NCBI GenBank assembly: GCA_051294375.1
Contig: CM119271.1
Coordinates: 1,805,395 to 1,869,394 of the forward strand
Length of the DNA: 64,000 bases
Direction: 5' to 3'
Source: Paraspadella gotoi
Taxonomy: Eukaryota; Animalia; Chaetognatha
Below, one piece after another: positions 5,476 through 41,724 of the stretch; positions within the stretch are counted from its first letter, which is position 1; every line of letters starts with the position of its first letter. The translations under genes and the position numbers were made by a program. The notes under the pieces were generated by a model, which worked only from the letters and a program-made list of their open reading frames with translations, was not told where the DNA came from and ran no database searches.

Positions 5476-5524
5476 CAACTCATCGACAGCGTTGCCAGCA
5501 TTGTCGCTCACGGTTCTTTTTATA

Positions 5525-8285
5525 GGAGGAAAAAGAAAAATGGAAATATACCATCTCTGGAATGATAAAAACCTGAAAGGTTGCTGTCAGGACAAGAGCT
5601 TAGGCTAAGTCGAAAAATTTGTCCAAACTCAGTTTTTTTTTAATTGCAGTTGAAGTTGGTAAGTTAATTTTGAGAAAATTTGATAACTTTTGTACTAATT
5701 TTGCAAAATATAGACTCAATTCAAACATCTATATGTCAAACAATATCAGTAAACCAAAGCTTTAATTTAAGACCACTCCCAACTTTCTCCGACTTTTGGT
5801 TAAAAAGTTATTAATCAAAATATATTATTTTTTTCTTTAAAAAAGTAATGGAATGGTGAGTATTATTGAGAATATAATAAGACTTTAATCTAAAAAATTG
5901 AGGATACCAACGAGTTCTATAGACAGTCTTCTTTCAATTAATTCATAAATAAAATTTTTCTTCAAGCTTAAATATAGGTACAATCATCCCCCAAAAATTT
6001 AAAAAAATATAAATTAATTTTTAAATAATTTACTATAATAATTTTATATAATTTTTCTTAATATATATGGACTAGAAACTATAGGATGTGACCTTCATTT
6101 TGAGGCCTATTGCCAACTCTTTACGATAAATATTTATTGAGATACTACCAAAAAAGCCCCAAAAATCTTTTAAAAACGTAATTTTTAATTTATTTAAGTC
6201 ATATCTCGGTGAATATATAACTTATTTTAAGTCAAATGATTTTATTCAGCAGATTAAAATGTAAGGCACATATTAAATACCATTAGTAGTATTATTTTAT
6301 CATAATTTAATCAGGACACTTAATTTTCAGACAATTTTACCAAATTTACATATACTTTTGGTTTTACAGCAACAAAGTACTAAACAAGGTAAATAAAAAT
6401 TGATGATAAATCTGTAAGCCAAAAGACCTTAGAATGTATTATATAGGTTTTAAAAAATTTTAGTGATAAAACTTCATCATGGTCATTATTTATGGCTAGC
6501 ATAAAGAACAAAGGTTCTATAATAACTGCTATAAGTTAAATTACATATGAATTGAAGAAAAAAACTTATTACTGGGTGCATTAATTCAGACATGTCACTT
6601 TAAACTGATAGTCCAGCGACCCCAGGTTTATGGCTAATCACCAATCCAGGGCTTGTCAAGTGGGTATGCATAAGCGTTAAGTGTACATGGGCTACGCGAT
6701 CCAAGCTCGGACTCTAATGAAAGCTGTCATCTATCAGTTCGTTTAAAAATTTTTTCTAAATGATTTAATGATATAAGGACAATAAAAAAATTAAAAAATT
6801 ATATATATAATTAAAGATTGAAGAAAATAATGTTATTACAGTTAGTTTTTATGATTATTTAGTGCTTGTAGTAGTAGTCGTGGTAGTAGGGGTCTCAGTG
6901 GTTGAGGTTTTTTTGTGTTTGGTGTGGGAATAATTTTTTTTGGTCATTATAATTGTTGTGGTCAATATTGTTATCATGGTTGTTATTATAATTATAATAT
7001 AGTGTGTAAATAGATATCATATAGTAGTCATAGTAGGTGGTTGTAGCTATTATATCTGTTAATAGTACTGAGAATTATGGTATGAATGTTATGATTGTTT
7101 AGAGTGTAGGAAATATATTTATATATATAAAATTTTAAAAAAATTTACTTACTCTTTTAAGTAACTAAAACTTTTAATAATTAGTGGTTTAAGAATATGG
7201 CTATCTTTTTATAATATAGAATCATGATAAATAATAAAAAAACTAACTGTAATAACATTATTTTTCTTCAATCTTTAATTTATATATATAATTTTTTTTA
7301 TTTTTTTATTGTCATTATATCATTAAATCTTTATGAGAAAATTTTTAAACCTATATAATACATTCTAAGTGTCTTTGGCTTACAGATTTTATCATCAATT
7401 TTTATTTACCTGTTTTAGTACTTTGTTGTGCTGTAAAAAACAAAAGTATATGTAAATTTGGTAAAAATTGGCTGAAAATTAAGTGTCCTGATTAACTTAT
7501 GATAAAATAATACAACTAATGTTATTTAATATGTGCCTTACACTTTAATCTGCTGAAATAATAAAATCATTTGACTTAAAATAAGTTATATATGCACTGA
7601 GATATGACTTAAATAAATTAAAAATTACATTTTTTAAAGATTTTTAGGGCTTTTTTTGGTAGTACCTCAATAAATATTTATCGTAAAGAGTTGGCAATAG
7701 GCTCAAAATGAAGGTCACATCCTATAGTTTCTAGTCCATATATATTAAGTTAAATATATATAAAATCATTATGGTAAATTATTTAAAAATTTAATTTATA
7801 TTTTTTTAATTTTTTGGGGGATGATTACCTATATTTAAGCTTGAAGAAAAATTTTATTTATGAATTAATTGAAAGAAGACTGTCTATAGTACTTGTTGGT
7901 ATCCTCAATTTTTTAGATTAAAATCTTATTATATTCTCAATAATACTCACCATTCCATTACTTTTTTAAAGAAAAAAATAATATATTTTGATTAATAACT
8001 TTTTAACCAAAAGTAGTCAGGAAAGTAGTGGGAGTGGTCTTAAATTAAAGCTTCTCGGTTTACTGATATTCTTGACATATAGATGTTTAAATTGAGTCTA
8101 TATTTTGCAAAATTAGTACAAAAGTTATCAAATTTTCTCAAAATTAACTTACCAACTTCAACTGCAATTTAAAAAAAACTGAGTTTGGACAAATTTTTCG
8201 ACTTAGCCTAAGCTCTTGTCCAGACAGCAACCTTTCAGGTTTTTATCATTCCAGAGATGGTATATTTCCATTTTCTTTTTCCTCC
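5525..8285. mobile_element. Non-autonomous foldback/TIR DNA element with ~1.06-kb inverted arms and TA target duplication
   Basis: ggaggaaaaagaaaaatggaaatataccatctctgg from 5525 is mirrored by ccagagatggtatatttccattttctttttcctcc ending at 8285. TA flanks both ends (5523-24, 8286-87). Arms are 5525-~6855 (with a ~285-bp insert) and ~7225-8285. No transposase ORF. Confidence 0.9.
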
Positions 8286-10448
8286 TATGACACAATGAAA
8301 AATGGCTACGCGTTACTGTTCCGTGCATAAAAAAAAAATTCACTGTTCATAATCATTATATTTCTTTTTTATTTTTTGAAACGTTATAGTTTCATATGCT
8401 GATATCCAAAATATCAATGCAAAATCTTTTTTTTTTTTTTTGATATGACTGAATATAGGGTGAAAGATGATAAATTTTTTTAAAAAGTTACTTATTCATA
8501 TTTATTCATAGAATTGTAATAAAAAAATATAAAAAAAAATAATAGTACTAATAGTTAGTGTTATGTCTCAAATAGATGGAAAAAAAACCTCATTTAAAAA
8601 TTCGATCGGGAAGTGGGGTAACTAAGGCTTACCAATGGCATCCTCCACGCCGATTGTTCTCTCAAATAATTTTTTTATTTAATACATTTGAAAGGGAAAA
8701 AAAGAAAATTTGGAATGCAGGTTGCAGAAATGGTACAGATAATCTGGACTTATTGACATGATAACCATGACTTTTAATATCTTGTGAAATGGGGGCAATA
8801 AAGAAATCTAAAAAATTTCATCATTAAGTCAGTCAATGAACCCTTTCCAATGGGCTATTACGAGAAATATTTTTTCTTAATTAAAATGGATGATAAATAA
8901 TAAAATTAAATTCCTTGCTATATTTAAAAAAAAATTATCAATACAAATTAACACAATGATGTTTTGCTTTGTCAAATATGTTACCAGCTATATAATTTTT
9001 TACAACTTTAATATGATAAACAAGCAGTGTGTCAAGCTTTTAGTTTGCAGTTAAAGATAATGAAAAATGATGATTTTTTTTTCACAGACAAGAAGGTAGA
9101 TGTCCAGACTGTTTATATCAAGCTGAAAACATTTTTGTTATTTATCATTTTTAATATTTAAAAATATATTTTATCAAGCTACAACATAAATTTTTGCTTG
9201 TTTTTTACTTTAACTGAAAAATATAAGCAATTTTATTGGAATAAAAAAAATTTAATAATAAACAAAATTTAATTCAGTCTTTCCTTTTTCAAATTACAAA
9301 AGAAAAAGAAAAAATTTCATATGTCTTCATTGAAATTTTTAAAGCAAAAAACTGTATATACTTTTAACTCTGATTTAAACAAAAGCTGTGTAAAGATTTA
9401 TGGATTTAATTTAATAAAACTCTTTTTAGAAAGGTGTCCCATGATTAGGGCTTTAATTTGATACCACATCCACCTTGCTACCTCTTTTTCTTTCAAAAGT
9501 TATTTAAAAAAATAATGTTTTTTAAATTACGCCAGTACAAATCTTTGTTAAATAAAAATTTCGGCAAAGCGGGAGTATCTCACTTATTTCTGTTGGTACA
9601 ATACTTAAATTTCAAAATAAAACTTGAAGAAAATTTTTTTTGTCATTTAGAGACATATCACTTTCAGATGTACCCATCGTATAATAATTTATTTATTTAT
9701 TTTCCCCAAAAAAGCCTAATTAGAAAAGTTGAAATTTTTTCAAATTGTTGTGGAAAAAAATTTCATCCGACCTATGCCTCATTGAGAATTAATGGTTTTG
9801 CATAGAAAATTAAAAATATCAAAAAAATAAAAAATCAGCCTCTAAAAAAATCGAAAGGCTAGAGGCTGATTTTTTTAGAATTGCAAAATTTTTTTCCTGA
9901 CTCATAATCCATTATTCTCAAATTTCAAAATATTTTTTTCCAAAATCATTCAATCAATTTTTTTTATTAATTTAAAATGTTTTTATGATGTTTGTTTTTG
10001 TTTGAAAGAATTGAAAAAAAGTGAAAAATATAGTAATTATATAATGGTTTTGAAAATACCTTTAAAATTATTAAATAATTAGACACAAGGGGAGTAAGCA
10101 GAGAAAACTTCCATTCATAAAGAAAATTAAAATGAATTTGTCATATTGTTATTTAGATTAATTGACATATATACAAACAAATGATTCATATAAATTGAGG
10201 AAATGATGGGTAAAAAATTATTTCATCTCGGTCTCGGTTAACTATTAGGTTATCTGTATAAAGTTTTGTTTTTATAAATATTAATATTTTTTTTGCATTT
10301 ATAAAAGCAATGGTCTAAAATTTTGTAAGCATTTAGAGCTTATATATTACTTTCATCTTTTTACTTTTTTGATCTAGTTAGCTTTTTTGTTGGATGGTCA
10401 AGGGTATGGTCAGATACAGACATGTCCAGTAATGATATATCGCACATA

Positions 10449-11144
10449 TTACCAAAAGTAGTGATTCAAATTAATTTGCTCAGAACGATTTAAAGGGACA
10501 AAATCAGCACGAGACCGTTTCGCCACGTTATTTTTCATTGTGTCTATAAAAAAGAACCGTTGCGCTTCCAAAGGCCAATCGCGTCCCATCTCGATCCAAC
10601 TCTTGGCGAAAACGTTTTCCGTTCCTCGCGAGTGAATCGAATCGTAAGAAAAAGATGCAAAACCCAAATCCGGGAATTTCTCGTGAAAATAACCAAATAT
10701 CGTCTTTTGCGGTGGATTGGGATCTCCGAAAACTTTGGCCATCGAATCGGATCCCTCGTTGCCGTGACTGAGAATGTTTCTGACGAAACGAGTCAAAAAC
10801 ATGACGCTGTTGATCTTGTACTGACCTTTTTTCCCGAAATCGTGGATCAGACTCGAGTCGATGAGATTAGTCCAATTGCATTCGTCCGAAAAAATGAATT
10901 TCGCGTTTTTCTCAAAAATGAAAAACGAATCTGCGATAGAGTCAGACTTACTTTTGCCTTCTTTTTTCGCGCTGAATGAGTTTACGAATTTTTCGTTGAC
11001 CCCGCGTAACAATTCGATCATTAGATAGGGGCTCATGAAGACTGGCGCTTCCAGAAGTACCTCGCATGATGGTCTCTTTTGCCATTCGGGATGAGTTGCT
11101 ACCTCGATAAGGTTATTGATTAAAAAGTTTTTGAGAGAGAGATT
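10449..11144 (-). CDS. Kinase C-terminal motif plus KEN ribonuclease domain (C-terminal part of the LRR receptor)
   Basis: Uninterrupted frame LIEVATHPEWQKRPSCEVLLEAPVFMS..IELLRGVNEK..NWTNLID..YKINSVMFLTRFVRNILSH..YFHEKFPDL. Compare IRE1 YKGGSVRDLLRAMRNKKHH..YFTSRFPHL and RNase L YQNTVGDLLKFIRNLGEH..YFQKTFPDL. Confidence 0.88.
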   Translation of the reverse strand, partial: NLSLKNFLINNLIEVATHPEWQKRPSCEVLLEAPVFMSPYLMIELLRGVNEKFVNSFSAKKEGKSKSDSIADSFFIFEKNAKFIFSDECNWTNLIDSSLIHDFGKKGQYKINSVMFLTRFVRNILSHGNEGSDSMAKVFGDPNPPQKTIFGYFHEKFPDLGFASFSYDSIHSRGTENVFAKSWIEMGRDWPLEAQRFFFIDTMKNNVAKRSRADFVPLNRSEQINLNHYFW

Positions 11145-14100
11145 CTACGTGTAAAATTATGAAGATATCTCCGATATTTTTCACTTCATTTGCCTGTGAT
11201 TTTCCAGATGAGAAATTTGAGTCAATCATGCAATGCACCAACTAAACTCAATCCAGTTTTTTAATCCTGTACCGTACTTCTTCTTGGCAATATGTAAATA
11301 CGACGCAAAGTCAACAATCATTTTTGTTATCTTGATCAATGACAGCTGAGACAGCGGTATTCTACAAATCTCTTGAAATTTTCAATGGCGACGTGTGATT
11401 CAATCTTTTCACAAGACTTTCTTGTTACTGAAATTGCTTTGCAAGTGTCAAAGCCAGGGCTCTGAAGAGAGAGCACAGCTTGGAGGTTATTCAAATTGCG
11501 TTTAAAAGTATTCTGTTCGGCGAATCCGCGTTTTGGAAAGCCTTCCACAATCTCAAAGTGTAAAGTAATTTTACAAATTTTCGTATTTCTTTGATTTGTC
11601 TTTCAAATTGAATTCAATTAATTTATGGATTCTCTTCATTTTCTTCAAACTTGACTCGGTTTTCATCCATTCTCTTTTCGAGCAAATGAAAAAGAAACAC
11701 CGCAGTAGTAAGAGAAACAGACTGAAGCTACGATGAAGGAATGTACAAACATTATATAACATAACAGACCGAACGCCGTTTAATAATGGGGATTTTTACA
11801 CTGTAGATCGTTGATTTCAAAAAACTCAAACTATTTTTGAAAACATTAACAGTCGATAGAAGAACAGTCAAATAATTACGACTATTTCAGCGTCATAAAA
11901 CCTGAGTTTAATACAGCGATCATTGAGTGAATGTTAGACCTATTAAATCGGAGATCGACTGTACGCAAATTCTTTAGCCCTTCTCAAACATCAAAAACTT
12001 AAAGAGTAGTTAGGTTGATTAAGTAACTCAGATTGAGCAGAATGACATTGGGCATAATTTAACTTTGTAAATTAAAGATGATCAATTGTTTTATGTTCGT
12101 GTGTATGAGTAATTAAGTGATGTGGTTTGCCAAGATAACAACTTGAAATATAGTTAAACAGGCTTCTGAGAGCAATTTACCTTTGTTATCGCTTCAGTTA
12201 TTGAGACACAGGAGCAATGTATTTGGAAACAGGGATGCCTGACGGCGCATTCTTCAAAGGAGGGGATATAGGTGCAGTGATGATTGCTGTATTTTCTTTC
12301 ACAACTACACTGCCATGGGTTAAAATCTAAATACATTTCAGAAATATTTCCCAATATCAACGAAATTGAAGGTTCAATGACCTGAAAATTATTTTCTCTC
12401 AGATCTAGAATTTTTAAGTTAGAGAGCTTAATCAATCCAAGTCTAGACAGACTGCTCAATTTATTATTCTTCAAAACAAGAGCATGAATATTATATCCTC
12501 GTTTTACGCTCTCAAAAGATAAGTTAAAATTGGTATTTGAATAATCTAAATAAGTCTGGTCGTAAGGGTAGCATCGAGAAAGTTTGGAAAATATCTCTCC
12601 TGAACAATCAACATAAAAATAACCATTTCGAATAGAGCACTTACATTTCAAGGGACAACAATGCGTAAGAAAGTTATTTTGATACAACAAATTCATCTCA
12701 TTCACGCTTGATCAACTTTAGAATATATATCAATTTCGCTGGAGTTAGGTTTATTATGCAACTATAATTTAATNNNNNNNNNNNNNNNNNNNNNNNNNNN
12801 NNNNNNNNNNNNNNNNNNNNNNNNNNNNNNNNNNNNNNNNNNNNNNNNNNNNNNNNNNNNNNNNNNNNNNNNNNNNNNNNNNNNNNNNNNNNNNNNNNNN
12901 NNNNNNNNNNNNNNNNNNNNNNNNNNNNNNNNNNNNNNNNNNNNNNNNNNNNNNNTATTTAATTGTTGTACTAATTCGTGATTAGAAAAGTAAAAGTTCG
13001 AATGATTTCCTTTAAATGAATAGTCCAGCGAGCAATTGAAGTAAAAACAGTTATATAAACCCGATAATATATTTCCAGAACAATCAATCTCTATGAAGTT
13101 TTCCTTATGTGAGCATTTACACAAAATCGGACAACATGGAATTTTCTCATATTTTTTTTTAAGAAATTCCATCATGGGGTAATATTCGGTTCCGCATGGA
13201 CACGGCCATCTTATGCCATCTAATTTAAGATTAGTCGTGGATTCAAACGCTCGAACTACTTCTTTTGAAAAAGATTGAACGCTACTTGACCGACTTAAAT
13301 CGAGTCTACTTAAATGTTCAAGATTCGCAACAAATTGGAAAGTTTTGAAAGTGTTAGATTTTAGGTAAACAGTGTCGAGTCTTTTGAATCCAAAAAACTC
13401 GGACGGATTGATAAAATTAAGCATATTGTATGAAATACTTAATTTTGTTAGTGAATTTATAACGTTGAAACAATTTAGATCGTTTTCGATCCTTTCAATC
13501 GAATTGGAATTAAGCTCAAGATTCTTAACGTAAACAAAAGGCCAATTCGCGCAATTTATTCGACGAATTTTATTGTTTTCAAGCCTCAAAGTGTCAATGT
13601 ATAAACTCAAAACTGACAATTCGATAGATTGTAAATTATTGGAAGTCAGATCTAACAAATTGATGGATCTAATATTTTGGAGACCTAATTCGTTCAGAGT
13701 GTAGATGCGATTTATACGTAAGGTTAAATTTCGTAATTGTTGAAGGTTACCAAATGCCTTTCTGTTTATTACTGTTATATTATTAACATCAAGTTCAATT
13801 GTTTCAATGGTTACCAAATTACTGAAACAATCATCGTCAAAGTGGGATATATAATTAAAACTAAGAATTAAACGCCGCAAAGCGGAGGAGCTTTTGAACC
13901 AATTTCTCACAACTTTAATTTGGTTATTACTAAGATTAATAATTGTTGTTAATCGCATTTCTTCAAAAGCGTATTTTTCCACACTGGAAACCTTGCCTAA
14001 TATAATAGAAAATTCATTTATTCGGCCAAGGTTTTTGAAATTATTTGCTTCTATTTTCGAAATATTACTTAATTTTAAAACCAGCGATTTTGACTTGAAA

Positions 14101-15185
14101 TTCGTTAATAGATTCTCGGGGATTCGAGCGAGGCTATCGAAAAAGACCCCATAGAGCAGTTGAGCCGAAGAAAAAACGTTTTTGTGAATTTGAAAATAGT
14201 CACCTGAACGACAAAATGCTGTGTTTGCGTCACAACGACCCACGGCTAACCGAGTCAGAAAACTCGAAAAGGAAAATGTTCCTTCATCGATGAAAATTAA
14301 TGGATTGTCCATCAAATACAAGGACTTAAGGGTCTTTAGACCAACGAAAGATCGATTCGACAAATACTCTATTTCGTTTAAATTCAAAAGTAATTTTCGC
14401 AAGGAGCGACTCTCGTTCGTGAATTTTATGTCCTTCAGAAAGTTATCGGTTAAATTCAAAAAATCTAGTTTTACCAAGAATGCCCGGTCGAAAAAGTATT
14501 AATATGATTCTTATCCAACCACAGTTCTTGTAAATTGACGAGATGTTTAAAAGCGTCTTTTTGTATCCAGACCAAACGATTTCCGCTCATGTACAAAATA
14601 TGCAAATCCTTCAGGCCGTGGAAAGTTGCGTTCGATACTTCCTTTATCAGGTTATTTCTGAGATTAAGCGTTTGTAGACCAACCACGTTCTCGAAGCAAT
14701 TGTCATCGATGTCGGAGATTAGGTTTTCTGAAAGATGAATCTCTTCCATTCTTATTCTACAAAAGTTCCATCGTAACGCGTTATTCTGTTTCCATAAAAT
14801 AAACAAAGCTCTGAGGCTTCCATCCCCGACAGAAATTCATCTTCTATTATCTCGATTCCGCCAGGTACGACAAGAAGCTTATCGGCGGAGCTCAAATTCA
14901 GAAGCAGTCCTGTACGAAGCGACACCAGATTGCTTACCGCGTGCTTGGTGAGATTTTTACATTGGGCATTTCTTATTTGCACCGTATACATTCCGTTGAC
15001 GAATTGTTCTCCCCAGGCGCAATTCACATTGTTATCAATGTTAGTCCCCCAAATTGAAGTTGAGTACAGAACAGACACAAAGTTTCGACCTAGTGCTGGC
15101 GTTGACGTTGGCGTTGACGTTGGCGTTGATGTTGGCCGAAAACAGAAAACAGAAGACATTTTATTTGGTTGAAATAAATCACCAT
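10449..15185 (-). CDS. Putative LRR receptor: signal peptide, Toll-like LRR ectodomain with multiple Cys clusters, TM, degenerate kinase, KEN (IRE1/RNase L-like) ribonuclease; frameshifted in this assembly
   Basis: Colinear minus-strand ORF pieces 15159-14752, 14806-14471, 14477-12762 and 12705-12154 contain LxxLxLxxNxI repeats, LRRCT (IRWPCPC, NPWQCSC) and LRRNT (CPILCKC..IDCSG, CPLKCKC..VDCSG). A further LRR GLKNLRTVDLRFN lies at ~11980-11940. A hydrophobic AFGLLCYIMFVHSFIVASVCFSYYC lies at ~11776-11700, and an alphaE-like LSLIKITKMIVDFASYLH at ~11347-11292. The open frame 11144-10449 encodes kinase subdomain XI plus KEN. Confidence 0.75.
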
Positions 15186-15375
15186 TGTTTCCCTTTTTTC
15201 AAAGATAACGGATGCCCAGCATATGTACGAGTATATTTTATAATAGACAAAACGGTGCAATAAGAAAAATATATATTTTGTCGATTTAAGTAATTGTGCT
15301 ATTGCAATTATCAGAATCCTCTAGAAGAATTTGTGGAGGATAATGTGAAAAATTTTAACGGAATCTTTTAAGATC

Positions 15376-15500
15376 AAAAGCTTTTCTAATTGATAAACTT
15401 ATGGAGTTAAGCAACTCATCCCGAATGGGATAAGCGACCTTCTTCAGATCTTTTGAAAGCCGTATCTAATGATAGAATTGATAAGCGCGATCTGCGAACA
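15376..15500 (+). pseudogene. Fragment of a paralogous kinase-KEN junction (opposite strand)
   Basis: gcaactcatcccgaatgg is identical to the reverse complement of 11082-11099. With indels it reads FLIDKLMEL-ATHPEWDKRPSS..(SP)YLMIELI, against FLINNLIEVATHPEWQKRPSC..SPYLMIELL in the main gene. Confidence 0.75.
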
Positions 15501-15924
15501 ATGAGTGGCGAGATCAACACTCAACAGGAGCCGCCGATGACGACTTAACAATTAAGTCCAAATATGTTATTGCACCGTTTTCTCCATTACCAAAATATAC
15601 TCGTATATTACAATTCTTCTGGTGTATGCGGTTACATTGAAACAAATACCGGATACTTGTCATAACCAAAATTGGCTTATCCTTTTAAAGTTAAATCGGT
15701 TAAAGGTTAAAGATTTTAAAAGGAAAGAAAGAAAAACTGGTTTTTGTACCTTGAATCATCTAGGAATCTTATTAAAGGGTAAGCAAGTTCGTTAAAAAAG
15801 TTATTACATTTTAATTGTAATTTTTTTTTTAAATGAATTCTTAAGGACTGTGTCGGCATGAGACAGTTTTAATCGGCCGGAAGGCCGGATGGTCAATTGT
15901 TATTTGTCGATTTGCTAGTGATAT

Positions 15925-16014
<90 letters not shown>

Positions 16015-16429
16015 ACCGCACAATTCCACCCACCTCCAAAGCTGACGTGACGTAGAGGTGATCTTTCCCGAGAAGTTCGAATGCTCGATCTCAAGCCGAC
16101 CTCGGCTGAAGAGAAACCCATCTCTCCGCTCGACCGAAGAGCCGCTTCTCCGCTGGAGCGAATGGCCCACCGGTGCGCAAGAGCCGTTCGGCGCTGGATC
16201 GAAGCCGCGCGGCGTCGAAGGCGCGCGGCGAAGAGTCGGCGTCCGCTCCGAGGGCCTCGGCGACGTTGCAGGCGACGGCGTTCTTTGTTACAGATCACAA
16301 TGATATTATTTCAAAAGTCAGTCAGAGTTGCAAGCAGGTTTTTAATAGATTAAATACTATGAACGTAGTTTTATGAGGTTTTGTAGTCGCTCATTGCATA
16401 AGTTCACTCCGCCTTCACGCATGACACAC

Positions 16430-16580
16430 TTCAGCTCATTGAGTAATACAATAGTTTAATATCATCAGGTACCGGGAAGCGTGAGGATCGCCGGAAAACC
16501 GCCTTGGGGAATGGAAAACCTCAAACCTGGTACAAAGCCCAGGACCCTTCCATTGCTGCTTAGGGGTGATGAGCGGAGGT
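16430..16580 (+). mobile_element. tRNA-derived SINE, degenerate copy (also in the duplicated block at ~24948-25100)
   Basis: The gctcattgagta head and accgccttgggga..ggaaaacctcaaacctgg..gcccaggaccc body match the reverse complement of 45990-46205 and 60090-60315. Confidence 0.6.
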
Positions 16581-17490
16581 TTCAGTCTCTCCCTCACCTT
16601 CGAAGAACATCAAATTGCTGGCAGAAATCAGGTTGAATCGCGATTCTCAGAGATCAAAGCATGATCTAGAACTGGAGGTAAGTAAAAGCAAGCATCGGGA
16701 AACAATCAGACCATTGCTAATTTAATATTATTACAATCTGTTTTAAAAAGAAATCGTGGTTAGAACATATTAATGAAATAATAACAACAAAAGTATTAAT
16801 TTAGGGTCGCATTCGTTCGAATCGAAGTTCCGATCAAGATCTTGATTTCACTTCTTTCAACTGCATAGTCACGGCCAAAAAAAATTATTAACAATGGCAG
16901 TTTCTTGAAAGCTTGGCGTCTGGGAAGCCAACGGAGGTAAGCGCGATCGAATATTTCCATGGTTTATCATGCCCCAAAAATGGTATTTAAATTGACTGTC
17001 AGGCCGTTTTTTCCCTTTCCCAAAGCCTGCTGATCTTTTGGAAAATCAGAACAAATCATAACTATCAGTACGGTTTCTGATAGCTTTGTCTTCTCTACAC
17101 AATAAAAAAAGAAAAGTTAAATTCTTGCAATCACTTTTAATTGCTTGATACAAGGCAATCAAAGAACTGGTTTTTAGGTGAAAACGGCATAAGATCTAAG
17201 CCTTCATTTGTTTGTCTACAAACCATCGAAAGAACTGATGTGTTATTACTTTTATCTGTTTCAGTGATAGAGCGCGGACAAATTTTAGTCTATTATCATT
17301 AAATTTCATGCAAATACGAATGAATTCCGTTTATCGCCACGGTAAAGGGATTTAAGCGCAATCCGGCCGTATTTAAACTGGTTATGTTAGAGGTTATCTA
17401 ATGAGGACTTCGATCGAAAAAAAGGATTGATCATGCGCGGATCCGGGTCAGATTAAACAGCTTTTCAACATCGCTTTACCGTCATTTTTA

Positions 17491-22898: not shown

Positions 22899-24443
22899 AT
22901 GCGACCGTCGTCCGTGATTTTATGTCCTTCAGAAAGTTATCGGTTTAATCAAAAAATCTAGTTTTACCAATTCACTCAGAATGCCCGGGTCGAAAAATAA
23001 TAATATGATTCTTATCCAACCACAGTTCTTGTAAATTGACGAGATGTTTAAAAAGCGTCTTTTTGTATCCAGACCAAACGATTTCCGCTCATGTACAAAA
23101 ATGCAAATCCTTCAGGCCGGGAAAGTTGCGTTCGATACTTCCTTTATCAGGTTATTTCTGAGATTAAGCGTTTGTAGACCAACCACGTTCTCGAAGCAAT
23201 TGTCATCGATGTCGGAGATTAGGTTTTGAAAGATGAATCTCTTCCATTCTTATTCTACCAAAAAGATTCCATCGTAAACGCGTTTTCTGTTTCCATAAAT
23301 AAACAAAGCTCTGAGGCTTCCATCCCCGACAGAAATTCATCTTCTATTATTCTCGATTCCGCCAGGTACGACAAGAAGCTTATCGGCGGAGCTCAAATTC
23401 AGAAGCAGTCCTGTACGAAGCGACACCAGATTGCTTACCCGTGCTTGGTGAGATTTTTACATTGGGCATTTCTTATTTGCACCGTATACATTCCGTTGAC
23501 GAATTGTTCTCCCCAGGCGCAATTCACATTTTTATCAATGTTATGTCCCCCAAATTGAAGTTGAGTACAGAACAGACGACAAAGTTTCGACCGTAGGCTG
23601 GCGTTGACGTTGGCGTTGACGTTGGCGTTGATGTTGGCGCGTAAAACAGAAAAACACAGAAGACATTTTATTTGGTTGGAAATAAATCCATTGTTTCCCT
23701 TTTTCAAAGATAACGGATGCCCAGCATATGTACGAGTATATTTTCATAATAGACAAAACGGTGCAATAAGAAAAAAAAATATATTTTTGTGTCGATTTAA
23801 GTAATTGTGCTATTGCAGATTATCAGAATCCTCTAGAAGAATTTGTGGAGGATAATGTTGAAAAATTTTAACGGAATCTTTTAGATCAAAAGCTTTCTAA
23901 TTGATAAACTTATGGAGTTAAGCAACTCATCCCGAATGGGATAAGCGACCTTCTTCAGATCTTTTGAAAGCCCGTATCTAATGATAGAATTGATAAGGCG
24001 CGATCTGCGAACAATGAGTGGCGAGATCAACACTCAACAGGAGCCGCCGATGACGACTTAACAATTAAGTCCAAATATCTGTTATTGCACCGTTTTCTCC
24101 ATTACCAAAATATACTCGTATATTACAATTCTTCTGGTGTATGCGGTTACATTGAAACAAAATACCGGATACTTGTCATAACCAAAATTGGCTTTATCCT
24201 TTTAAAGTTAAATCGGTTAAAGGTTAAAGATTTTAAAAGGAAAGAAGAAAAACTGGTTTTTGTACCTTGAATCATCTAGGAATCTTATTAAAGGGTAAGC
24301 AAGTTCGTTAAAAAAGTTATTACATTTTTAATTGTAATTTTTTTTTTAAATGAATTCTTAAGGACTGTGTCGGCATGAGACAGTTTTAATCGGCCGGAAG
24401 GCCGGATGGTCAATTGTTATTTGTCGATTTGCTAGTGATATGG

Positions 24444-24526
<83 letters not shown>

Positions 24527-25312
24527 ACCGCACAATTCCACCCACCTCCAAAGCTGACGTGACGTAGAGGTGATCTTTCCCGAGAAGTTCGAATGCTCAT
24601 CTCAAGCCGACCTCCGGGCTGAAGAGAAACCCCATCTCTCCGCTCGACCGAGAGAGCCGCTTCTCCGCTGGAGCGAATGGCCGCACCGGTGCGCAGAGCC
24701 GTTTCGGCGCTGGATCGAAGCCGCGCGGCGTCGAAGGCGCGCGGCGAAGAGTCGGCGTCCGCTCGAGGGCCTCGGCGACGTTGCAGGCGACGGCGTTCTT
24801 TGTTACAGATCACAATGATATTATTTCAAAAGTCAGTCAGAGTTGCAACAGGTTTTTAATAGATTAAAATACTATGAACGTAGTTTTATTGAGGTTTTGT
24901 AGTCGCTCATTGCATAAGTTCACTCCGCCTTCACGCATGACACACTTCAGCTCATTGAGTAATACAATAGTTTAATATCATCAGGTACCGGAAGCGTGAG
25001 GATCGCCGGAAACCGCCTTGGGGGAATGGAAAACCCTCAAACCTGGTACAAAGCCCAGGACCCTTTCCATTGCTGCTTAGGGGTGATGAGCGGAGGTTTC
25101 AGTCTCTCCCTCACCTTCGAAGAACATCAATATTGCTGGCAGAAATCAGGTTGAATCGCGATTCTCAGAGATCAAAGCATGATCTAGAACTGGAGGTAAG
25201 TAAAAGCAAGCATCGGGAAACAATCAGACCATTGCTAATTAATATTATTACAATCTGTTTAAAAAAGAAATCGTGGTTAGAACATATTAATGAAATAATA
25301 ACCAACAAATAT
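22899..25312. repeat. Near-identical duplicate of ~14405-16795, including the 5' end of the LRR gene, adjacent to an N gap
   Basis: Colinear identity broken mostly by single-base indels. It starts right after the gap at 22873-22897, and the sequences diverge after 16795 and 25312. Confidence 0.9.
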
Positions 25313-32126: not shown

Positions 32127-34702
32127 ACCGGTCACTTCGTTGTAGGCCACCAACCAGGCGTTGAATGCTTGCCGTCGCCTGATGCAGCTTAGATCGACCG
32201 GCGATTCGTTGTTGCTCGAGTGTTTCGACGGCGCCTGTGGATCGTTGCGGCAAATAAAATCATTAAAAAAACAAAAGACCAAAAAAAAATCAAACCAAAA
32301 CAGAAAGAGACTTTAACAGATAGAAAAAAAAAACAGAAAAAAAAGAAAACAGAATAGAATACAATGGAACGGAAAGAAATACAAAACAGAAGATAGAAAA
32401 CATTCGGAATAAAAATAGACCAAATTTAAAAAAACAACAAAAAAAAACAGAGCAAACCGAAAAAAGAAGAAAACACAATTTACCAGGAAAGAACAAAACA
32501 AAACAACAGATGAACCTCTAAAAATAGAATAATAATAATAATAATAATAATAAAACCAATCTCACCAGAGTGACATTGACATCGACATTCATTTATTATT
32601 ATTAATTATTTAATATTTATATATTATTATTATTATTTCTGCTTCTGCCCAAAGTTTCCCTCACTTTCCAAGTGACGTAAGATGCGGGACTGTCGACCAT
32701 TGAAACCGTCACCGACGTTTCAGCTAATTTTTTGGGGAGTAAAACAAAACAGCGAAAATCAAAACAACAAATCATTCATTTACCATCTAGGCTAAAAAGT
32801 ATATCACATTTTTAGTGAAAGGTATTTACTCGAAACCTTATTAGATTTTATTTTATTTTTTATTAGTTTTTTATTTTAGCTATACCAAAGGTACTGCACA
32901 TTTTTTGGTTCATAAAAGTATTATTATAGCTCTCAGAAAAGAGGGAAAGACTTGGTCTCCATCATTCTACCATTTCAAAATTCTTATTGCCTTAAAATAT
33001 ATCAAAATTATTTGATGTGGCTTTTTGCTCGGGAAAATCAAAAAGCTTGAAGGCAAGAAGTAGTCGATGCCGAGAGAGTGAATACTAAATATTAAGCATA
33101 TTTTACTAATATTTTATATATTTTTAAATAAATAAATGAACTTTTTAAAAATTATATGATATACTTTTTGCCTTGATAGTATTTACATTTCATTCGTTTC
33201 CATCCGTCTTTATTTATTGCCATCGCCTTTCTCGAGAAATACGAGTTTTACGTGGAATTAAGCAAAGTTGAGAGCGGAACAATAACATCGGGCAGACTAA
33301 GGAACGGGTAGGTCTTTGTTTATTTAGACTCACTCAATATTGGGCCGGCGATTTGGTAAGTCTCCTTCGTGTTGCCGTAGAAAGGGTAAGACTCTCCGTC
33401 CGAGTCGTTAATTCCAGGAAGGCCCATATTGAGTTGAGGGAATTCCCAGGAGCTGAATCCCAGTTTGTTGTATCTGGGTATGAGATAAACTGTTTTCTAA
33501 CCATTTTGTAATCTTCGCAAAAACAAATTATATTAACGAAGAAACATGTTGTAGCTTGTCGCTTAATGTCCAGTTTGGTCATAATTTAGTAAGTACACTA
33601 CCGCGCCGAAAAATGCCAATCTGCACCCTAACAACTCTGGAACTCACACGTTGACGAAGCTGATGTATTTGCAAGATTGAATCCACCCGATCGTCCAGAT
33701 TTGACCGAGAGGAACTTGGAAGAGAGATTGAAGTCGGGCATTAAAGGCAATAAAGGCATTAAAGGCAATAAAGGCATTAAAGGCATTAAAGATACGAAGA
33801 CTTGCGGTTGTAGTTGTGGTTGTTGTTGTTGATTATGTTCTTGTTTAATTTGTTTATGTTGGTTTGTGGTTTTTTTGTGATATTTTTGTGGTATTTTTGT
33901 TTTTTGTTGTTTTTTTGTTGTGATTTGTGTTCTTTGATGTTTTTTTCGAGTGTTTTTGTTGTTTTTGTTGCTGCTGATTGTGTTTTTATTATTGTTGTTT
34001 AAGTTGTTGTTGTTTAGGTTGTTTTATTTGTCGTCGTCGTGGTCATTCACCTGGCGGTAGAGTGACTTTAGCTTTGGCGCGCATCGTCGGCGTTCTGATA
34101 AAGTTGGAAAATATAGCTTTCAGGGACCTGCTATGTCACTATCTTGTAAGAGTGTGGGAGGCCCTTAAACCTCAATGCCTGTCCAAAGTCAGGGGCAAGA
34201 TAGCTTATTTATTAAATGAATGGATAATTTTTATATTGGTTGTACCAATTTCATAAAATTCAGCTCCTTGTATTTGAATGCTAGTGTGGATTACAATAAG
34301 TATTCCCCGATCTAATACTTAATGGAGTGGTCTTTCATACAATTGAAACATTCTTTGAAATATTTTCCACTTCATTGATAGGGAGCCAGGTACTCTGGAA
34401 GTGAATAAACGAGACTGTGAGAGAGAGTTTTGATTGAAAGCTTTCAGGGACCTGCTATGTCATTATCTTGTAAGAGTGATGGAGCCTTAAACCACCAAAG
34501 CCTGTCCAAAGTCAGGGGCAAGATAGCTTATTTATTAAATGAATGGATAATTTTTATATTGGTTGTACCAATTTCATAAAATTCAGCTCCTTGTATTTTG
34601 ATGCTAGTGTGGATTACAATAAGTATTCCCCGATCTAATACTTAATGGAGTGGTCTTTTCATACAATTGAAACATTCTTTGAAATATTTTCCACTTCATT
34701 GA

Positions 34703-36542
34703 TAGCATCAACGAGAGGACTGAAGCGATCTGCCCGCGGGAGGCGAAGGCGACTGGAGGAGCAGCAGGAGAGCGGCAGGAGAGCAGCAGGAGAGAGGGAG
34801 GAGATCGAGAGATCCCATGGGCTCACCCAACGAATAAGACTGAAGGAGAGTTGGGGGAGCCAATGAGAGGGATCGTGACTTTGAGTTGAGAGAGAAGATC
34901 TGTAGAGATTCATTCTGTTCTCCATCGTCCTAGTGTTCATGTCTCGTTCTAACCTTCTTTAGTTGTGTAAATAAATACTCTGTATTTTTGACCACATTTG
35001 TCTTCGCGTTAATGTGTGCGGCGCGGATGGAATCATCCGCATCAACGAACGACGCGGATCGAATGAGAGCCCTGAAAGGAAGTCAATGCCCAGGGGAAAG
35101 CAATGCCGAAGAAATCCAAGCATCTTCGGGGAAGGACAGAATGCGTCGCCAACTGCATTATCGCCTTCCAAGGCGACTCGGTAAAACTGGAATCGATCGA
35201 AAAGTGTAACATCGTCTGCAGCCCAAGGCTAAAAGAGAGCCTTCGCGGTACGACTCAGCGGCCCTCCACACAACTGAGAGGATGCGGAGTCGAAGCGAGA
35301 CCAACATCATCGCCACACTTCTTCGTAGCAAGCCAGATGATCGCGACGCGAGAAGAGATGACAACGCACTCGACGCCCTCATCGAAAACGCCTCGGCGTT
35401 GGCATCAAGAAACCAGGCGAGAATCGACCGACTCACTGATGCCATGAGGCATGAACTTTGCGTTCCCGTGCGGCGAGGCGCGCATTGCCGCCGAAAAAGC
35501 GCATAAACTCCCCGGCCGCGATAACCTTTATCGACCCTGGAAAAATCGCAATCCTATGCGGTGAACTGCTAATCACCGCGAGGTGCAAAAGAACTCTAGC
35601 CCTGCGAAGACAAACACAGAAATGCTACCAAGGACTTACCAGTGAGCTTCAGAGGACGAAGGTATTCAAACACTCCATCTTCCATCACCTCATAGAATCA
35701 TCACTTGAGACGCCATGCTATCCGCCGCCGGTGTACGAGATCGGAGGAAACTTTCTGGATAACAACGGACAGATTTTCAAGAAGTACAATGTTCTCCGCA
35801 CAACTCTACCAAACAAACAAGAACACGTTTTCGAAAGAAGGAAAGATCTACGAAGATGTCGGCTACTTTATCGATCTACACTCCAAATACATCACAGAAA
35901 GACACGAATTCACTCAACAGATGGGAGAAATTACCGACGGATCCCCGGCATCTTTTTTCCAAAAGATGTTTGGCAAAACGGAGCTGGTGTCCTGGTGGAA
36001 CACCTTCGCAAACTTCGCACCTCCCATCGCGATCATCTCCGTCGTCGTGATCATCGCTGTTTTATTTGTGTTGCTGCTGCTGCCCTTGCGCAGTCAAATG
36101 TGTTGCGGCAACAAGCCGAAGCCGTCGCGGATTACGCCATCGGCATCGGAGGACAACATCCGCCGCAGTAGCCCGAAAGTGTAGGCTCCTCGGTGAAAAT
36201 AAGACTCACCTCCTTCGCCTCTGGAGCGGGGGTGGCATCAACGAGAGGACTGAAGCGATCTGCCGGGGAGCGAAGGCGACTGGAGGAGCAGCAGGAGAGC
36301 GGCAGGAGAGCAGCAGGAGAGAGGGAGGAGATCGAGAGATAGCCCATGGGCTCACCCAACGAATAAGACTGAAGGAGAGTTGGGGAGCCAATGAGAGGGA
36401 TCGTGACTTTGAGTTTGAGAGAGAAGATCTGTAGAGATTCATTCTGTTCTCCATCGTCCTAGTGTTCATGTCTCGTTCTAACCTTCTTTAGTTTGTGTAA
36501 ATAAATACTCTGTTATTTTGACCACATTTGTCTTCGCCGTTA
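34703..36542 (+). mobile_element. Env-only LTR retroelement (LTRs 34703-35011 and 36233-36542)
   Basis: ~310-bp near-identical direct repeats containing AATAAA. A polypurine tract ggagcggggg (36223-36232) lies just before the 3' LTR. The element interrupts the host repeat cttcattgata|gggagccagg with a duplicated ttga(ta). No gag/pol and no obvious PBS. Confidence 0.85.
35012..36184 (+). pseudogene. Class III viral fusion glycoprotein (chuvirus G / herpesvirus gB-like), C-terminal ~390 aa, frameshifted
   Basis: Pieces ..IDRLTDAMRHELC..INSPAAITFIDPGKIAILCGELLITARCKRTLALRRQTQKCYQGL..HHLIESSLETPCYPPPVYEIGGNF.. are followed by the TM segment IAIISVVVIIAVLFVLLLL and a short Cys-containing tail. 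The PG..A..GE...C..R.T..CY and C..P.Y.I.G pattern is typical of this family. Confidence 0.7.
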
Positions 36543-39125
36543 TTGATTAGGAAGCCAGGTACTCTGTAAGTGAATAAACGAGACTGTGAGAGAGTTTTGA
36601 TTGAAAGTTGAATGCTGCCAGTCGCCTGATGCCAGCTTAGATTCGACGGCGATTCGTTGTTGCTCGCAGTGTTTCGACGGCGCCCTTGGGATCGTTGTCG
36701 AATGGCCGCAAAAAAATCTATTAAAAAAAAAAAAAAGACCCAAAAAAAAAAATCAAACCAAAACAGAAAGGACTTTAACAGATAGAAAGAAAAAAACGAG
36801 AAAAAAAAAAACAGAATAGAAACAATGGAACGGTAAAGAAATACAAAAAAAGATAGAAAACATGCGAATAAAAATAGGACCATAATTTAATAAAAAACAA
36901 AAAAAACAGAGCAAACGAAAAAAGAAGAAAACACAATTTACCAGAAAAGAACAAAACAAAAACAACAGGAGAACTCTAAAAATAGAATAATAATATAATA
37001 AATAAAAAACCAATTCACCAGAGTTGACATGACTCGACTTCATTTATTATATTAATTATTTAATATTTTATATTATTATTATTATTTCTGCTTCTGCCCA
37101 AAGTTTTCCCTCACTTTTCCAGTTGATCGTAAGATGCGGACTGTGCCCCATGAAACTGTCACCGAGCGTTTCAGCTAATTTTTGGGGAAGTAAACCAAAA
37201 CATGCGAAAATCAAAACAACAAGATCTTCATTTACCATCTAGCTAAGAAAGTATATCATTTTTTATGAAAGGTATTTACTCGAACCTTATTAGATTTTTT
37301 TATTTTTTTATTAGTTTTTATATTTTAGCTATACCAAAAGGTAACTGCACATTTTGTTGGTTTATAAAAGTATTATATAGCTCTCGAAAAGAGGGAAAGA
37401 CTTGGTCTCCATCATTCTACCATTTCAAAATTCTTATTGCCTTAAATATACAAAATTATTTATGTGGCTTTTGTGTCTGGGAAAATCAAAGCTATAGCAA
37501 GAAGTAGTCGATGCCGAATGAGAGTGACATACTAAAATATTAAGCATATTTTACTATATTTATATATATTTTTAAATAATAAATGGCTTTTAAAATTATA
37601 TGATTATACTTTTTGCCTTGAGTTTTTACATTCATTCGTTTCCTCCGTCTTTATTTATTCCATCGCCTACTCTCGAGAAATACGGAGTTTTACGTGGATT
37701 AAGAAAGTTGCAGAGGAACATAACATCGCGGCAGACTAAGGACGGGTTAGGGCTCTTTGTTTATTAGATCACTCAATATTGGGCCGGCGATTTGGTAAGT
37801 TCTCCTTCGTTGTTTCCGTAGAAAGGGTAAGACTTCTCTCCGAGTCTGTTAATTCCAGGAAGGCCCATATTTGAGTTGGGGAATTCAGGATGCTGAATTC
37901 CCAGTTGTTGTATCTGCGTATAGATAAACTTTTTCTTAACATTTTGTAATCTTCGCCAAAAACAAATTATATTTAACGATAAAACATGTTGTAGCTGGTC
38001 GCTATGTCCAGTTTTGTTCTATTAATTTAGTAAGTTACCTACCGGCCGCCGAAAAATGCCAATCTGGCACCTAACAACTCTTGGAACTCACACGTTGACG
38101 AATGAGATGTATTTGCAAGATTGAATCCACCCGGATCGTCCAGATTTGACTTGAGAGGAACTTGAAGAGAGATTGAAGTCGGGGCATTAAGGCAATAAGG
38201 CATTAAGGCAATAAAGGCATTTAAAGGCATTAAATCGAAGACTTGCGTTGTATGTTTGGTTGTGTTGTTGATTATTTCTTTAATTTGTTTATGTTGGTTT
38301 GTTGGTTTTTTTTGTGATATTTTTGTGGTATCTTTTGTTTTTTTGTTTTTTGTGTAATTTGTTTCTTTTTTTTTCGGTTTTGTTGTTTTTTTGCTGTGAT
38401 TTGTTTTATATTGTTCAGTTTTTATCGTGTTGTTTGTTATGTATTCGTGTAGGTTTTATTTCGTGTCGTGGTCAGTTCACCTGGCGGTTAGAGTGACTTT
38501 TAGCTTGGCAGCGCCATCGTCGGCGTTCTGTGATAAAGTGGAAATATAGCTTCAGGACTGCTTGTCACGATCTTGTAAGAGGATGAGGCCCTTAAACCTC
38601 AATGCCTGTCCAAAGTCAGGGGCAATGATAGCTTATTTATTAAATGAATGGATAATTTTTATATTGTTTGTTACGAATTTCATAAAATTCAGCTCCTTGT
38701 ATTTAATGCTAGTGTGGTTACAATAAGTATTCCCCTGATCTAATACTTAATGGAGTTGTCTTTTCATACAATGAAACATTCTTTGATAATAATTTCCACT
38801 TCTTGATAGGGGCCAGCTACCTGGAAGTGAATAAACGAGACTGTGTAGAGAGATTTTGATTGAAAGCTTTCAGGGACCTGCTATGCATTATCTTGTAAGA
38901 GATGATGGAGGCCTTAAACCACCAAAGCCTGTCCGAGTCGAGGGCAAGATAGCCTTATTTATTAAATGACATGATAATTTTATATTGGTTGTACCAATTT
39001 ATAAAATTCAGCTCCTTGTATTTTGATGCTAGTGTGGATTACAATAAGTATTCCCCGATCTATACTTAATGGATTGGTCTTTCATCAATTGAAACATTCT
39101 TTGAAATATTTTCCACTTCATTTGA

Positions 39126-40961: not shown

Positions 40962-41724
40962 TTGATAGGAAGCCAGGTACTCTGTAAGTGAATAAACGAG
41001 ACTGTGAGAGAGTTTTGATTGAAAGCTTTCAGGGACCTGCTATGTCATTATCTTGTAAGAGTGATGGAGGCCTTAAACCACCAAAGCCTGTCCAAAGTCA
41101 GGGCAAGATAGCTTATTTATTAAATGAATGGATAATTTTTATATATTGGTTGTACCAATTTCATAGACTAAAAATCCACTTTCTTCGTGAAAAGTTTTTT
41201 TTGGGGAGGCGGGGGGGGAATCTAAAGGGTGGGGCTTACAATCGGTCCTTTGTGGGGCGGGGTGCGGNNNNNNNNNNNNNNNNNNNNNNNNNAGTGAGGC
41301 GAGGGGGCAGAAGGGAAAAGTGAGGCTCAAGTTTTCAGTGCAAACTCATTCCTCTTCGCAGCGACAGCGAGGTGACTTACCGAGGCTTTCACAAAAATCA
41401 CTCGACCTCGCCTCGTCGAGTCGCCTTACAAATTCACAGAAAAAGGCAGGAAGGCGAAAAAGAGTGAACGAGGGTGAGTTGGTGAGTGAAAGCGAGACGA
41501 CCTCACCTTTTCGGTCAATCTTCTTTCTCCGTCGTTAATCACGTCGGAAATCGCTCGAGGGGCGAAAACATTTTTCACGAACCTGAAAAACATGACTTTT
41601 TCGCTTTTTTCTCCGATTTTCGTTGGATTCGGATTCCGATAAACTTCCAAGACGACTGGAGTCGATTGAGGGGGGGGATTATGAGAGAGAACAAGGATCT
41701 ATTACATTACTGAATAATCAATAT

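What the first reader, a model, noticed from the sequence alone, without database searches (positions are those of the whole stretch)
10760..10825. KEN catalytic tetrad is intact with IRE1-like spacing
Seen: Y73..R86-N87..H91 of the 195-aa ORF (YKINSVMFLTRFVRNILSH; His codon at 10764-10766). Established: IRE1 Y892/R905/N906/H910 and RNase L Y655/R667/N668/H672 are the catalytic residues, and the Y-to-R distance of 13 matches IRE1. The 230-codon frame is unbroken while upstream sequence is disrupted. Inference: the nuclease is active, or was until recently, and probably derives from an IRE1-like gene by domain shuffling.
Basis: partly seen in the sequence, partly recalled or inferred. Interest (0 to 1): 0.8.

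Follow-up and report, generated by a model that had tools for sequence, protein, structure and literature searches.

The report
Toll-like receptor with RNA-cutting tail
The four catalytic residues of this IRE1/RNase L-type RNA-cutting domain are intact, and the domain is likely the inner tail of a roughly 1,500-residue membrane receptor with a Toll-like outer part (broken here probably by sequencing errors) that would cut RNA when something binds to it from outside.

Summary
The tetrad is real: Y73/R86/N87/H91 at 10818-10764 (-), inside a Pfam KEN match (E 1.5e-13), aligned to IRE1 Y892/R905/N906/H910. The 13-residue spacing is not diagnostic: 19 of 22 KEN domains examined have it. The ORF begins with the last helix of a kinase and lies downstream of a transmembrane helix and a long leucine-rich-repeat (LRR) region with Toll-like cysteine clusters. 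Contigs of other runs differ from the window mainly by indels (101 gap letters, 41 substitutions in 4,002 nt), and one contig keeps LRR, transmembrane, kinase-remnant and KEN pieces in one phase at 5 of 5 test points. So the upstream 'disruption' is most likely assembly error. Two intact database proteins (1,457 and 1,300 aa) have the same LRR-TM-pseudokinase-KEN order and are the best LRR matches I saw. Best reading: a receptor ribonuclease, IRE1's output module under a Toll-like ectodomain, probably switched on by ligand-driven dimerisation. Activity, ligand, expression and absence of in-frame stops are untested. Ten paper searches found no description of this layout.

The parts
14752..15198 (-). 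N-terminal piece of the ectodomain; start codon and signal peptide not resolved
   Evidence: ORF; frame in phase with the main LRR ORF in contig X1 record 6
14471..14836 (-). LRR piece
   Evidence: tblastn with P0028 E 2e-7 to 2e-10; joined in phase to the next ORF by X2 record 13 / X6 record 20
12956..14498 (-). Main LRR array with a cysteine-bearing insert and a short cysteine cluster (W.CPC...IPCCP..CKC)
   Evidence: Pfam LRR_8 E 7e-40; 28% identity over 458 columns to P0028, both cysteine features shared with P0007 and P0028
12774..12955 (.). Run of N inside the gene
   Evidence: bridged by contig X1 record 5 (joint 12696-12956)
12154..12711 (-). Second cysteine-cluster + short LRR module
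   Evidence: Pfam LRR_8 E 3e-6; P0028 584-704, E 9e-11
11800..12230 (-). Probable third cysteine-cluster + LRR module, frameshifted in the window (ends approximate)
   Evidence: LRR motif at 12049-11942 (E 4.2, weak) in the frame predicted by the contig
11717..11773 (-). Predicted transmembrane helix
   Evidence: 19-residue hydropathy 2.09; same place as the helix of P0007 and P0028
11145..11716 (-). Juxtamembrane part and kinase remnant (frameshifted); helix alphaE-like segment at 11345-11292
   Evidence: segment ranks 1 of 126,498 positions for the relatives' alphaE (chosen); whole region not significant against nulls; 70 aa from alphaE to subdomain XI
11043..11114 (-). Kinase subdomain XI, start of the long ORF
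   Evidence: aligns to IRE1-like P0009, score 53 against null maximum 35
10644..10976 (-). KEN (Ribonuc_2-5A) nuclease domain
   Evidence: Pfam E 1.5e-13; model residues 80-167 superpose on human IRE1 860-948, Z 8.2, rmsd 3.3 A, 83 residues
10764..10820 (-). Catalytic tetrad Y73, R86, N87, H91
10334..10545 (.). High-copy repeat overlapping the last ~30 codons of the ORF
   Evidence: contig depth 400-68,000 against 17-147 beside it, loose ends at 10334-10340 and 10541-10545
22901..25309 (-). Second copy of the 5' part of the gene (14406-16791), ending at a run of N; probably an assembly duplicate
   Evidence: 96% identity, 61 gap openings, 8 mismatches; 48 gap letters in 1,027 columns

Best explanation
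The KEN domain with its intact tetrad is likely the cytoplasmic tail of one intronless gene (about 15200 to 10450, minus strand, roughly 1,500 aa) that likely encodes a single-pass membrane receptor: Toll-like LRR ectodomain, transmembrane helix, a probably dead kinase remnant, then the ribonuclease, which would be switched on when a ligand brings two receptors together. Shown: tetrad, KEN domain, LRR arrays, hydrophobic helix, their order and strand, two intact proteins of the same order. Inferred: one reading frame (about 0.85), dead kinase (about 0.85), active nuclease (about 0.7), activation by ligand-driven dimer or oligomer formation as in IRE1 and RNase L (about 0.6), an immune role with broad RNA decay or cell death as output rather than splicing of one mRNA (about 0.5).
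For: KEN match and tetrad. Window differs from run X1 contigs by 101 gap letters and 41 substitutions in 4,002 nt, and is 64 nt longer than the contig over 2,167 nt; an internal duplicate of the gene's 5' part differs by 61 gap openings and 8 mismatches: an indel-error pattern. Taking the LRR ORF as phase reference, X1 record 5 predicts the frame at 5 further anchors (11941, 11649, 11300, 11195, 10530), and at 5 of 5 it is the only one of three frames without a stop in 33 codons around the anchor (about 0.4% by chance); records 13/20 and 6 put the two upstream ORFs in phase too (2 of 2, though at 15228 the predicted frame holds stops in the window). Of 19 representatives found with the KEN frame, P0007 is signal-like N-terminus + LRR + TM + weak kinase + KEN; P0028 has the same order. 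The window's LRR ORF scores 120.5 and 116.2 bits against P0028 and P0007, above the best of 141 PDB hits (97.1 bits), and shares two unusual cysteine features with them. KEN tree: query plus 9 derived rows are parted from 12 IRE1-like rows by a branch at 94/88. Relatives lack HRD and DFG; the model of relative P0003 superposes on IRE1 kinase C-lobe + KEN, Z 14.6. IRE1 cuts as a back-to-back dimer with Y892/R905/N906/H910 (PMC9472280, passages); RNase L dimerises through its pseudokinase (PMC4730318, passages).
Against: The contigs' letters were not seen in full, so in-frame stops are not excluded, and 169 of 209 listed letter differences were hidden, so the tetrad codons were not checked in other runs. 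X1 may be the sample behind the window. The kinase remnant as a whole is not significant, the alphaF test failed (not in the three best local ranks), and it is much shorter than in IRE1. The AU test rejects query + P0007 + P0028 as an exclusive clade (p 0.0055), so the layout is either ancestral to the subfamily or partly convergent; the query's branch is long (1.69). The relatives' ubiquitin-like tail was not found in the window and the ORF ends in a repeat, which could be a damaging insertion. No signal peptide could be read. P0007 and P0028 carry His in place of the catalytic Tyr. The model of the window's own frame is weak (pLDDT 54.9, Foldseek best E 0.046).
Confidence: 0.6

Rival explanations
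1. Same gene structure, but not an immune receptor: an ER- or secretory-pathway sensor, or a developmental receptor, that trims or splices particular mRNAs as IRE1 does.
For: The output module is IRE1-derived and is closer to IRE1 than to RNase L in profile and fold scores; Toll-type ectodomains also serve development (recalled). Nothing here shows where the protein sits.
Against: No IRE1 luminal domain; IRE1's basic residue after Asn and the first His of its HH pair are replaced (RNILSH against RNKKHH); the subfamily shuffles sensor parts (LRR-TM, and UBL-LRR-Roc in P0026), and two alleles or copies in one run differ at 16 of 207 LRR positions, a pattern common in defence genes (recalled).
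Confidence: 0.18
2. A recently broken gene: the receptor RNase is a pseudogene or a damaged allele, and the tetrad survives only because decay is recent.
For: Many breaks in the window; a high-copy repeat overlaps the ORF end; the kinase remnant is short and unrecognisable; ubiquitin-like tail of relatives not found.
Against: Contigs keep one phase at 5 of 5 plus 2 of 2 anchors; several contigs match the long LRR ORF with no gap (X2 records 10, 11, 12: 552, 239, 265 nt, 0 differences); the repeat lies past the end of the KEN domain.
Confidence: 0.12
3. An intact receptor whose KEN domain is weak or dead and serves as an RNA-binding or scaffolding part.
For: Basic and aromatic residues just before the Tyr differ from IRE1 (GKKGQY against RKFRTY); long branch; two relatives have lost the Tyr.
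Against: R, N and H of the motif are invariant in 22 of 22 aligned proteins; the HEPN R-x4-6-H motif is described as the main determinant of activity (PMC3710099, passages).
Confidence: 0.07
4. One reading: a stand-alone 195-aa KEN nuclease that merely lies beside an unrelated LRR gene.
For: A Met at 11036 opens a 195-aa ORF; solo KEN proteins are reported in Oikopleura and monocots (PMC3710099, passages).
Against: The frame continues 5' of that Met into kinase subdomain XI; its 5' stop lies where contigs show a net -1; both ends of the locus pick the same two full-length proteins.
Confidence: 0.03

Closest known systems
IRE1 (yeast Ire1p, human ERN1; PDB 2rio, 3fbv, 9gow)
   Same: Single-pass membrane layout with sensor outside and kinase-fold + KEN inside; Y/R/N/H catalytic set in the same columns; subdomain XI and KEN fold.
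   Different: LRR/cysteine-cluster ectodomain instead of the luminal domain; kinase reduced to a remnant; RNILSH instead of RNKKHH; 26-35% identity at best to any protein found.
RNase L (PDB 4o1o, 4oav)
   Same: Repeat sensor + pseudokinase + KEN; activation by dimerisation; likely defence role.
   Different: RNase L is soluble with ankyrin repeats that bind 2-5A and is confined to jawed vertebrates (PMC10400998); this protein has LRRs and a membrane helix. RNase L was not in my tree.
Toll and other multiple-cysteine-cluster Toll-like receptors (class name recalled; Drosophila Toll PDB 4lxr)
   Same: Long LRR array, internal cysteine cluster, short second LRR module, transmembrane helix.
   Different: No TIR domain found; the cytoplasmic part is a kinase remnant plus ribonuclease; the cysteine cluster is shortened and the membrane-proximal module is repeated.
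Unnamed ENA proteins P0007, P0028 (LRR-TM-pseudokinase-KEN) and P0026 (UBL-LRR-Roc-pseudokinase-KEN-UBL)
   Same: Same KEN subfamily signature and, for P0007/P0028, same domain order and ectodomain cysteine features.
   Different: They carry a C-terminal tail that in P0003/P0026 folds like tandem ubiquitin; the window gene seems to lack it, keeps an IRE1-like subdomain XI and keeps the Tyr that P0007/P0028 have replaced by His.

Membership tests
KEN / Ribonuc_2-5A (HEPN superfamily) | Pfam PF06479 above the gathering score | tested here: met
   51.4 bits against 23.3, E 1.5e-13
KEN / Ribonuc_2-5A (HEPN superfamily) | R-N-x3-H motif with upstream Tyr in the catalytic columns | tested here: met
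   residue roles from PMC9472280 (passages)
KEN / Ribonuc_2-5A (HEPN superfamily) | KEN helical fold | tested here: met
   VIA Z 8.2, rmsd 3.3 A, 83 residues on human IRE1 860-948; ranks 1-25 all IRE1 or RNase L, next unrelated Z 3.5; Foldseek E only 0.046; residue-level register comes from sequence, not from the superposition
KEN / Ribonuc_2-5A (HEPN superfamily) | Metal-independent endoribonuclease activity | not testable with these tools
   needs an assay
IRE1 orthologues | ER-luminal unfolded-protein sensor domain N-terminal to the membrane helix | tested here: not met
   the region N-terminal to the helix is LRR
IRE1 orthologues | Active Ser/Thr kinase with HRD and DFG | tested here: inconclusive
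   window region is frameshifted and not significant against kinase profiles; only 70 aa between alphaE and subdomain XI; relatives lack both motifs
IRE1 orthologues | KEN domain groups inside IRE1 | tested here: not met
   query lies outside the 12 IRE1-like rows, 94/88; long branch, few or no confirmed animal IRE1 rows in the set
RNase L | N-terminal ankyrin repeats binding 2-5A, soluble protein | tested here: not met
   LRR and a membrane helix instead; no ankyrin match in the four frames of this locus scanned or in P0007/P0028
Toll-like receptors | LRR ectodomain with cysteine clusters and one membrane helix | tested here: met
   signal peptide not resolved
Toll-like receptors | Cytoplasmic TIR domain | tested here: not met
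   no TIR match in the KEN frame, in one frame of 11339-11602, or in intact P0007/P0028; the other two frames of the broken stretch were not scanned with Pfam
LRR-TM-pseudokinase-KEN group (P0007, P0028; unnamed) | Same domain order and shared ectodomain features | tested here: met
   collinear tblastn, cysteine insert and short cluster
LRR-TM-pseudokinase-KEN group (P0007, P0028; unnamed) | Exclusive clade in the KEN tree | tested here: not met
   AU p 0.0055; the query is sister to the whole 9-row subfamily instead

The most novel reading that the evidence does not exclude
An animal lineage has built pattern-recognition receptors that skip TIR signalling altogether: a Toll-type ectodomain directly gates an IRE1/RNase L-type ribonuclease across the membrane, part of a modular family in which the same pseudokinase-KEN effector is swapped behind different sensors (Toll-like LRR-TM, LRR-Roc GTPase). 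It would be an invertebrate functional counterpart of RNase L that needs no 2-5A.
Probability: 0.45. Interest if true: 0.87.

Novelty: new variant of a known kind. Interest (0 to 1): 0.7.

Why it matters
Characterised KEN ribonucleases are switched on by unfolded proteins in the ER (IRE1) or by 2-5A in the cytosol (RNase L). A Toll-like ectodomain wired straight to this nuclease would be a third input, a one-protein route from an outside or endosomal signal to RNA destruction, and a candidate for how animals without RNase L use RNA decay in defence. It is easy to test in the yeast growth-arrest assay used for OAS-RNase L (PMC10400998). The tetrad by itself is ordinary; the layout is what carries the interest.

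Tried and rejected
No whole genome is held for this window, so paralogues and dN/dS could not be examined. The search for homologous proteins: KEN frame against longer proteins, 0 of 517 candidates; P0007 860-1457, only itself among 5,074; profile A2, 2 of 3,288. Metagenome scans: 0 of 80 and 0 of 85 pattern matches confirmed; the viral scan could not be built. No RNA holder listed for the locus; run X9 is only guessed to be RNA and covers it patchily: no evidence either way on expression. Frameshift-aware alignment of 11040-11900 to 7 single proteins and 3 profiles gave no significant kinase match apart from subdomain XI; the alphaF segment test failed. tblastn with six C-terminal tails of relatives found nothing near the gene. 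The pseudokinase N-part of P0003 did not fold (pLDDT under 50 for 1-172). ESM Atlas: KEN clusters for the window frame (0.96, recognition below the tool's threshold) and kinase clusters for P0028 760-1300 (0.91); no cluster with this layout was listed, which shows nothing about absence. Rejected: Y-to-R spacing as a phylogenetic marker; the apparent alignment of the last 25 residues to the start of the relatives' tail, because these codons lie in a repeat. Look-ups of earlier findings by sequence and place were blank.

Full report
Observation. The minus-strand frame 10449-11144 has 231 codons; counted from the Met at 11036 it gives 195 aa with Y73, R86, N87 and H91 at the stated places. Pfam Ribonuc_2-5A matches at E 1.5e-13. 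Alignments to yeast and human IRE1 put the four residues in the catalytic columns; the RNase-inactive IRE1 mutant 3sdj carries H>N in the His column. An AlphaFold model from 7 sequences is weak overall (pLDDT 54.9) but its core superposes on human IRE1 860-948 at Z 8.2, rmsd 3.3 A; Foldseek ranks IRE1 first without significance.

The spacing argument fails. In 22 KEN domains from 21 proteins (the query, 19 representatives and P0028; P0002 has two), Tyr stands 13 residues before the Arg in 19, His in 2 and Asp in 1. It marks KEN domains in general.

The unit is larger. The frame starts with kinase subdomain XI (score 53 against a null maximum of 35 with IRE1-like P0009). Upstream on the same strand lie a hydrophobic helix at 11773-11717 and LRR ORFs from 12154 to 15198. 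Of the 19 proteins found with the KEN frame in the 1.84-billion library, P0007 (1,457 aa) has LRR, a membrane helix, a weak kinase and KEN; a profile search added P0028 (1,300 aa) with the same order. P0028 maps collinearly on the window: 14339-13017 (E 3e-36), 12660-12307 (E 2e-10), 11054-10671 (E 3e-14). The window's main LRR ORF scores higher against these two (120.5, 116.2 bits) than against any of 141 PDB hits (best 97.1) and shares a cysteine insert and a shortened cysteine cluster with them. This comparison covers PDB and four stored proteins only, not all invertebrate Toll-like receptors. A member of P0003's cluster, P0026, puts the same pseudokinase-KEN behind UBL-LRR-Roc; the P0003 model matches IRE1 kinase C-lobe + KEN (Z 14.6) and tandem ubiquitin (Foldseek E about 4e-7; Z 11-12).

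The upstream breaks look like assembly errors. Nine runs of one organism hold the locus. Contigs of 4 of them were laid. In run X1, record 5 covers 10530-12696 and bridges the run of N, record 6 covers 12999-15228; over four aligned pieces there are 101 gap letters and 41 substitutions in 4,002 nt and the window is 64 nt longer than the contig over 2,167 nt. Duplicated stretches inside the window show the same excess of gaps. Using the record's coordinates, the phase of the LRR ORF at 12696 predicts the frame at five further anchors; at 5 of 5 it is the only stop-free frame, and it reads an LRR motif, a basic juxtamembrane stretch, an alphaE-like segment, the stretch just before the ORF, and the KEN frame. 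Two more records put ORFs 14471-14836 and 14752-15198 in phase. This shows phase, not the absence of stops; X1 may be the window's own sample, though X2 (another study) and X6 agree where they overlap. The contigs also imply a compensated indel pair inside the 'unbroken' ORF, downstream of the tetrad, and a repeat over its last codons.

The kinase part is the weakest link. Neither 7 single proteins nor 3 profiles gave a significant match to 11090-11720. The relatives' alphaE segment ranks first of 126,498 positions at 11345, a test chosen after seeing that hit; the alphaF segment did not rank. Only 70 aa separate alphaE from subdomain XI, too few for a normal C-lobe, and P0007, P0028 and P0026 lack HRD and DFG. 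I read it as a dead remnant.

Descent. In a maximum-likelihood tree of the 22 KEN regions the query lies between 12 IRE1-like rows and 9 derived rows (94/88 on one side, 96/91 on the other), on a long branch. With the root inside IRE1, which I assume and did not test, it is the earliest branch of the derived subfamily. An exclusive clade with P0007 and P0028 is rejected, so the LRR-TM layout is ancestral to the subfamily or was partly gained twice. RNase L was not in the tree.

Mechanism. IRE1 cuts RNA as a back-to-back dimer (PMC9472280, passages) and RNase L dimerises through its pseudokinase on ligand binding (PMC4730318, passages); Toll-type ectodomains dimerise on ligand (recalled). The simplest model is that ligand binding outside, or in an endosome, pairs two receptors, aligns their kinase remnants and completes the KEN dimer, which then cleaves RNA by the His/Tyr acid-base mechanism. 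Every step after the anatomy is inferred.

What is known. The HEPN survey lists KEN fusions to kinase, ankyrin, CCCH, UBI and BRCT, and solo forms, with no LRR-TM form (PMC3710099, 12 of 25 passages seen). The RNase L origin paper has no 'LRR' in its main text; its figure and supplement were not seen. PMC7333395 mentions the Pfam family once among plant receptor-kinase domains without a layout (one passage); PMC6307210 holds none of four terms searched. Ten full-text searches (two of them were for residue numbers) listed no paper on an LRR-TM-KEN receptor, judged from titles and abstract starts; subscription journals are mostly not covered. Earlier notes of this scan report other rewired KEN proteins, one a protist membrane receptor (unchecked), so rewiring is recurrent, but none of the 8 listed has a Toll-like ectodomain.

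Verdict. Observation confirmed, interpretation partly supported. The tetrad is ordinary for a KEN domain; its setting is not. New variant of the kinase-KEN sensor kind, interest 0.7. The source is probably an invertebrate animal (inferred from the Toll-like ectodomain and genome texture; no call names it).

Noticed in passing
window 35455-36184 (+), second copy about 40121-40765: Frameshifted fragment of a Monjiviricetes-type viral fusion glycoprotein gene (Pfam PF24664, E 2e-7), between direct repeats of about 310 nt (34705-35011, 36235-36542), inside a 4.5-kb tandem duplicate (32160-36607 / 36607-41025, 91.7% identity, 289 gap openings). Likely an endogenous viral or retroelement-borne gene.
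   Followed up: no
window 22901-25309: Second copy of the 5' part of the receptor gene and its upstream DNA, ending at a run of N; differences are almost all indels.
   Followed up: partly
proteins P0026 / P0003: A Roco-like protein (UBL-LRR-Roc, two hydrophobic helices) ends in pseudokinase-KEN plus a tandem ubiquitin-like tail resembling di-ubiquitin or ISG15; a second unusual KEN layout in the same subfamily.
   Followed up: partly
window 12309-12515 and 14038-14436: Contigs show strongly diverged alleles or close copies in the LRR region: 16 differences in 207 nt in run X2, 22 in 399 nt in run X6.
   Followed up: no
window 5522-6461 and 7338-8288: Inverted duplicate of about 950 nt at 94% identity; could be the arms of a transposon or an assembly artefact.
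   Followed up: no
protein P0002: A plant protein (Rumex) with two tandem kinase-KEN units.
   Followed up: no
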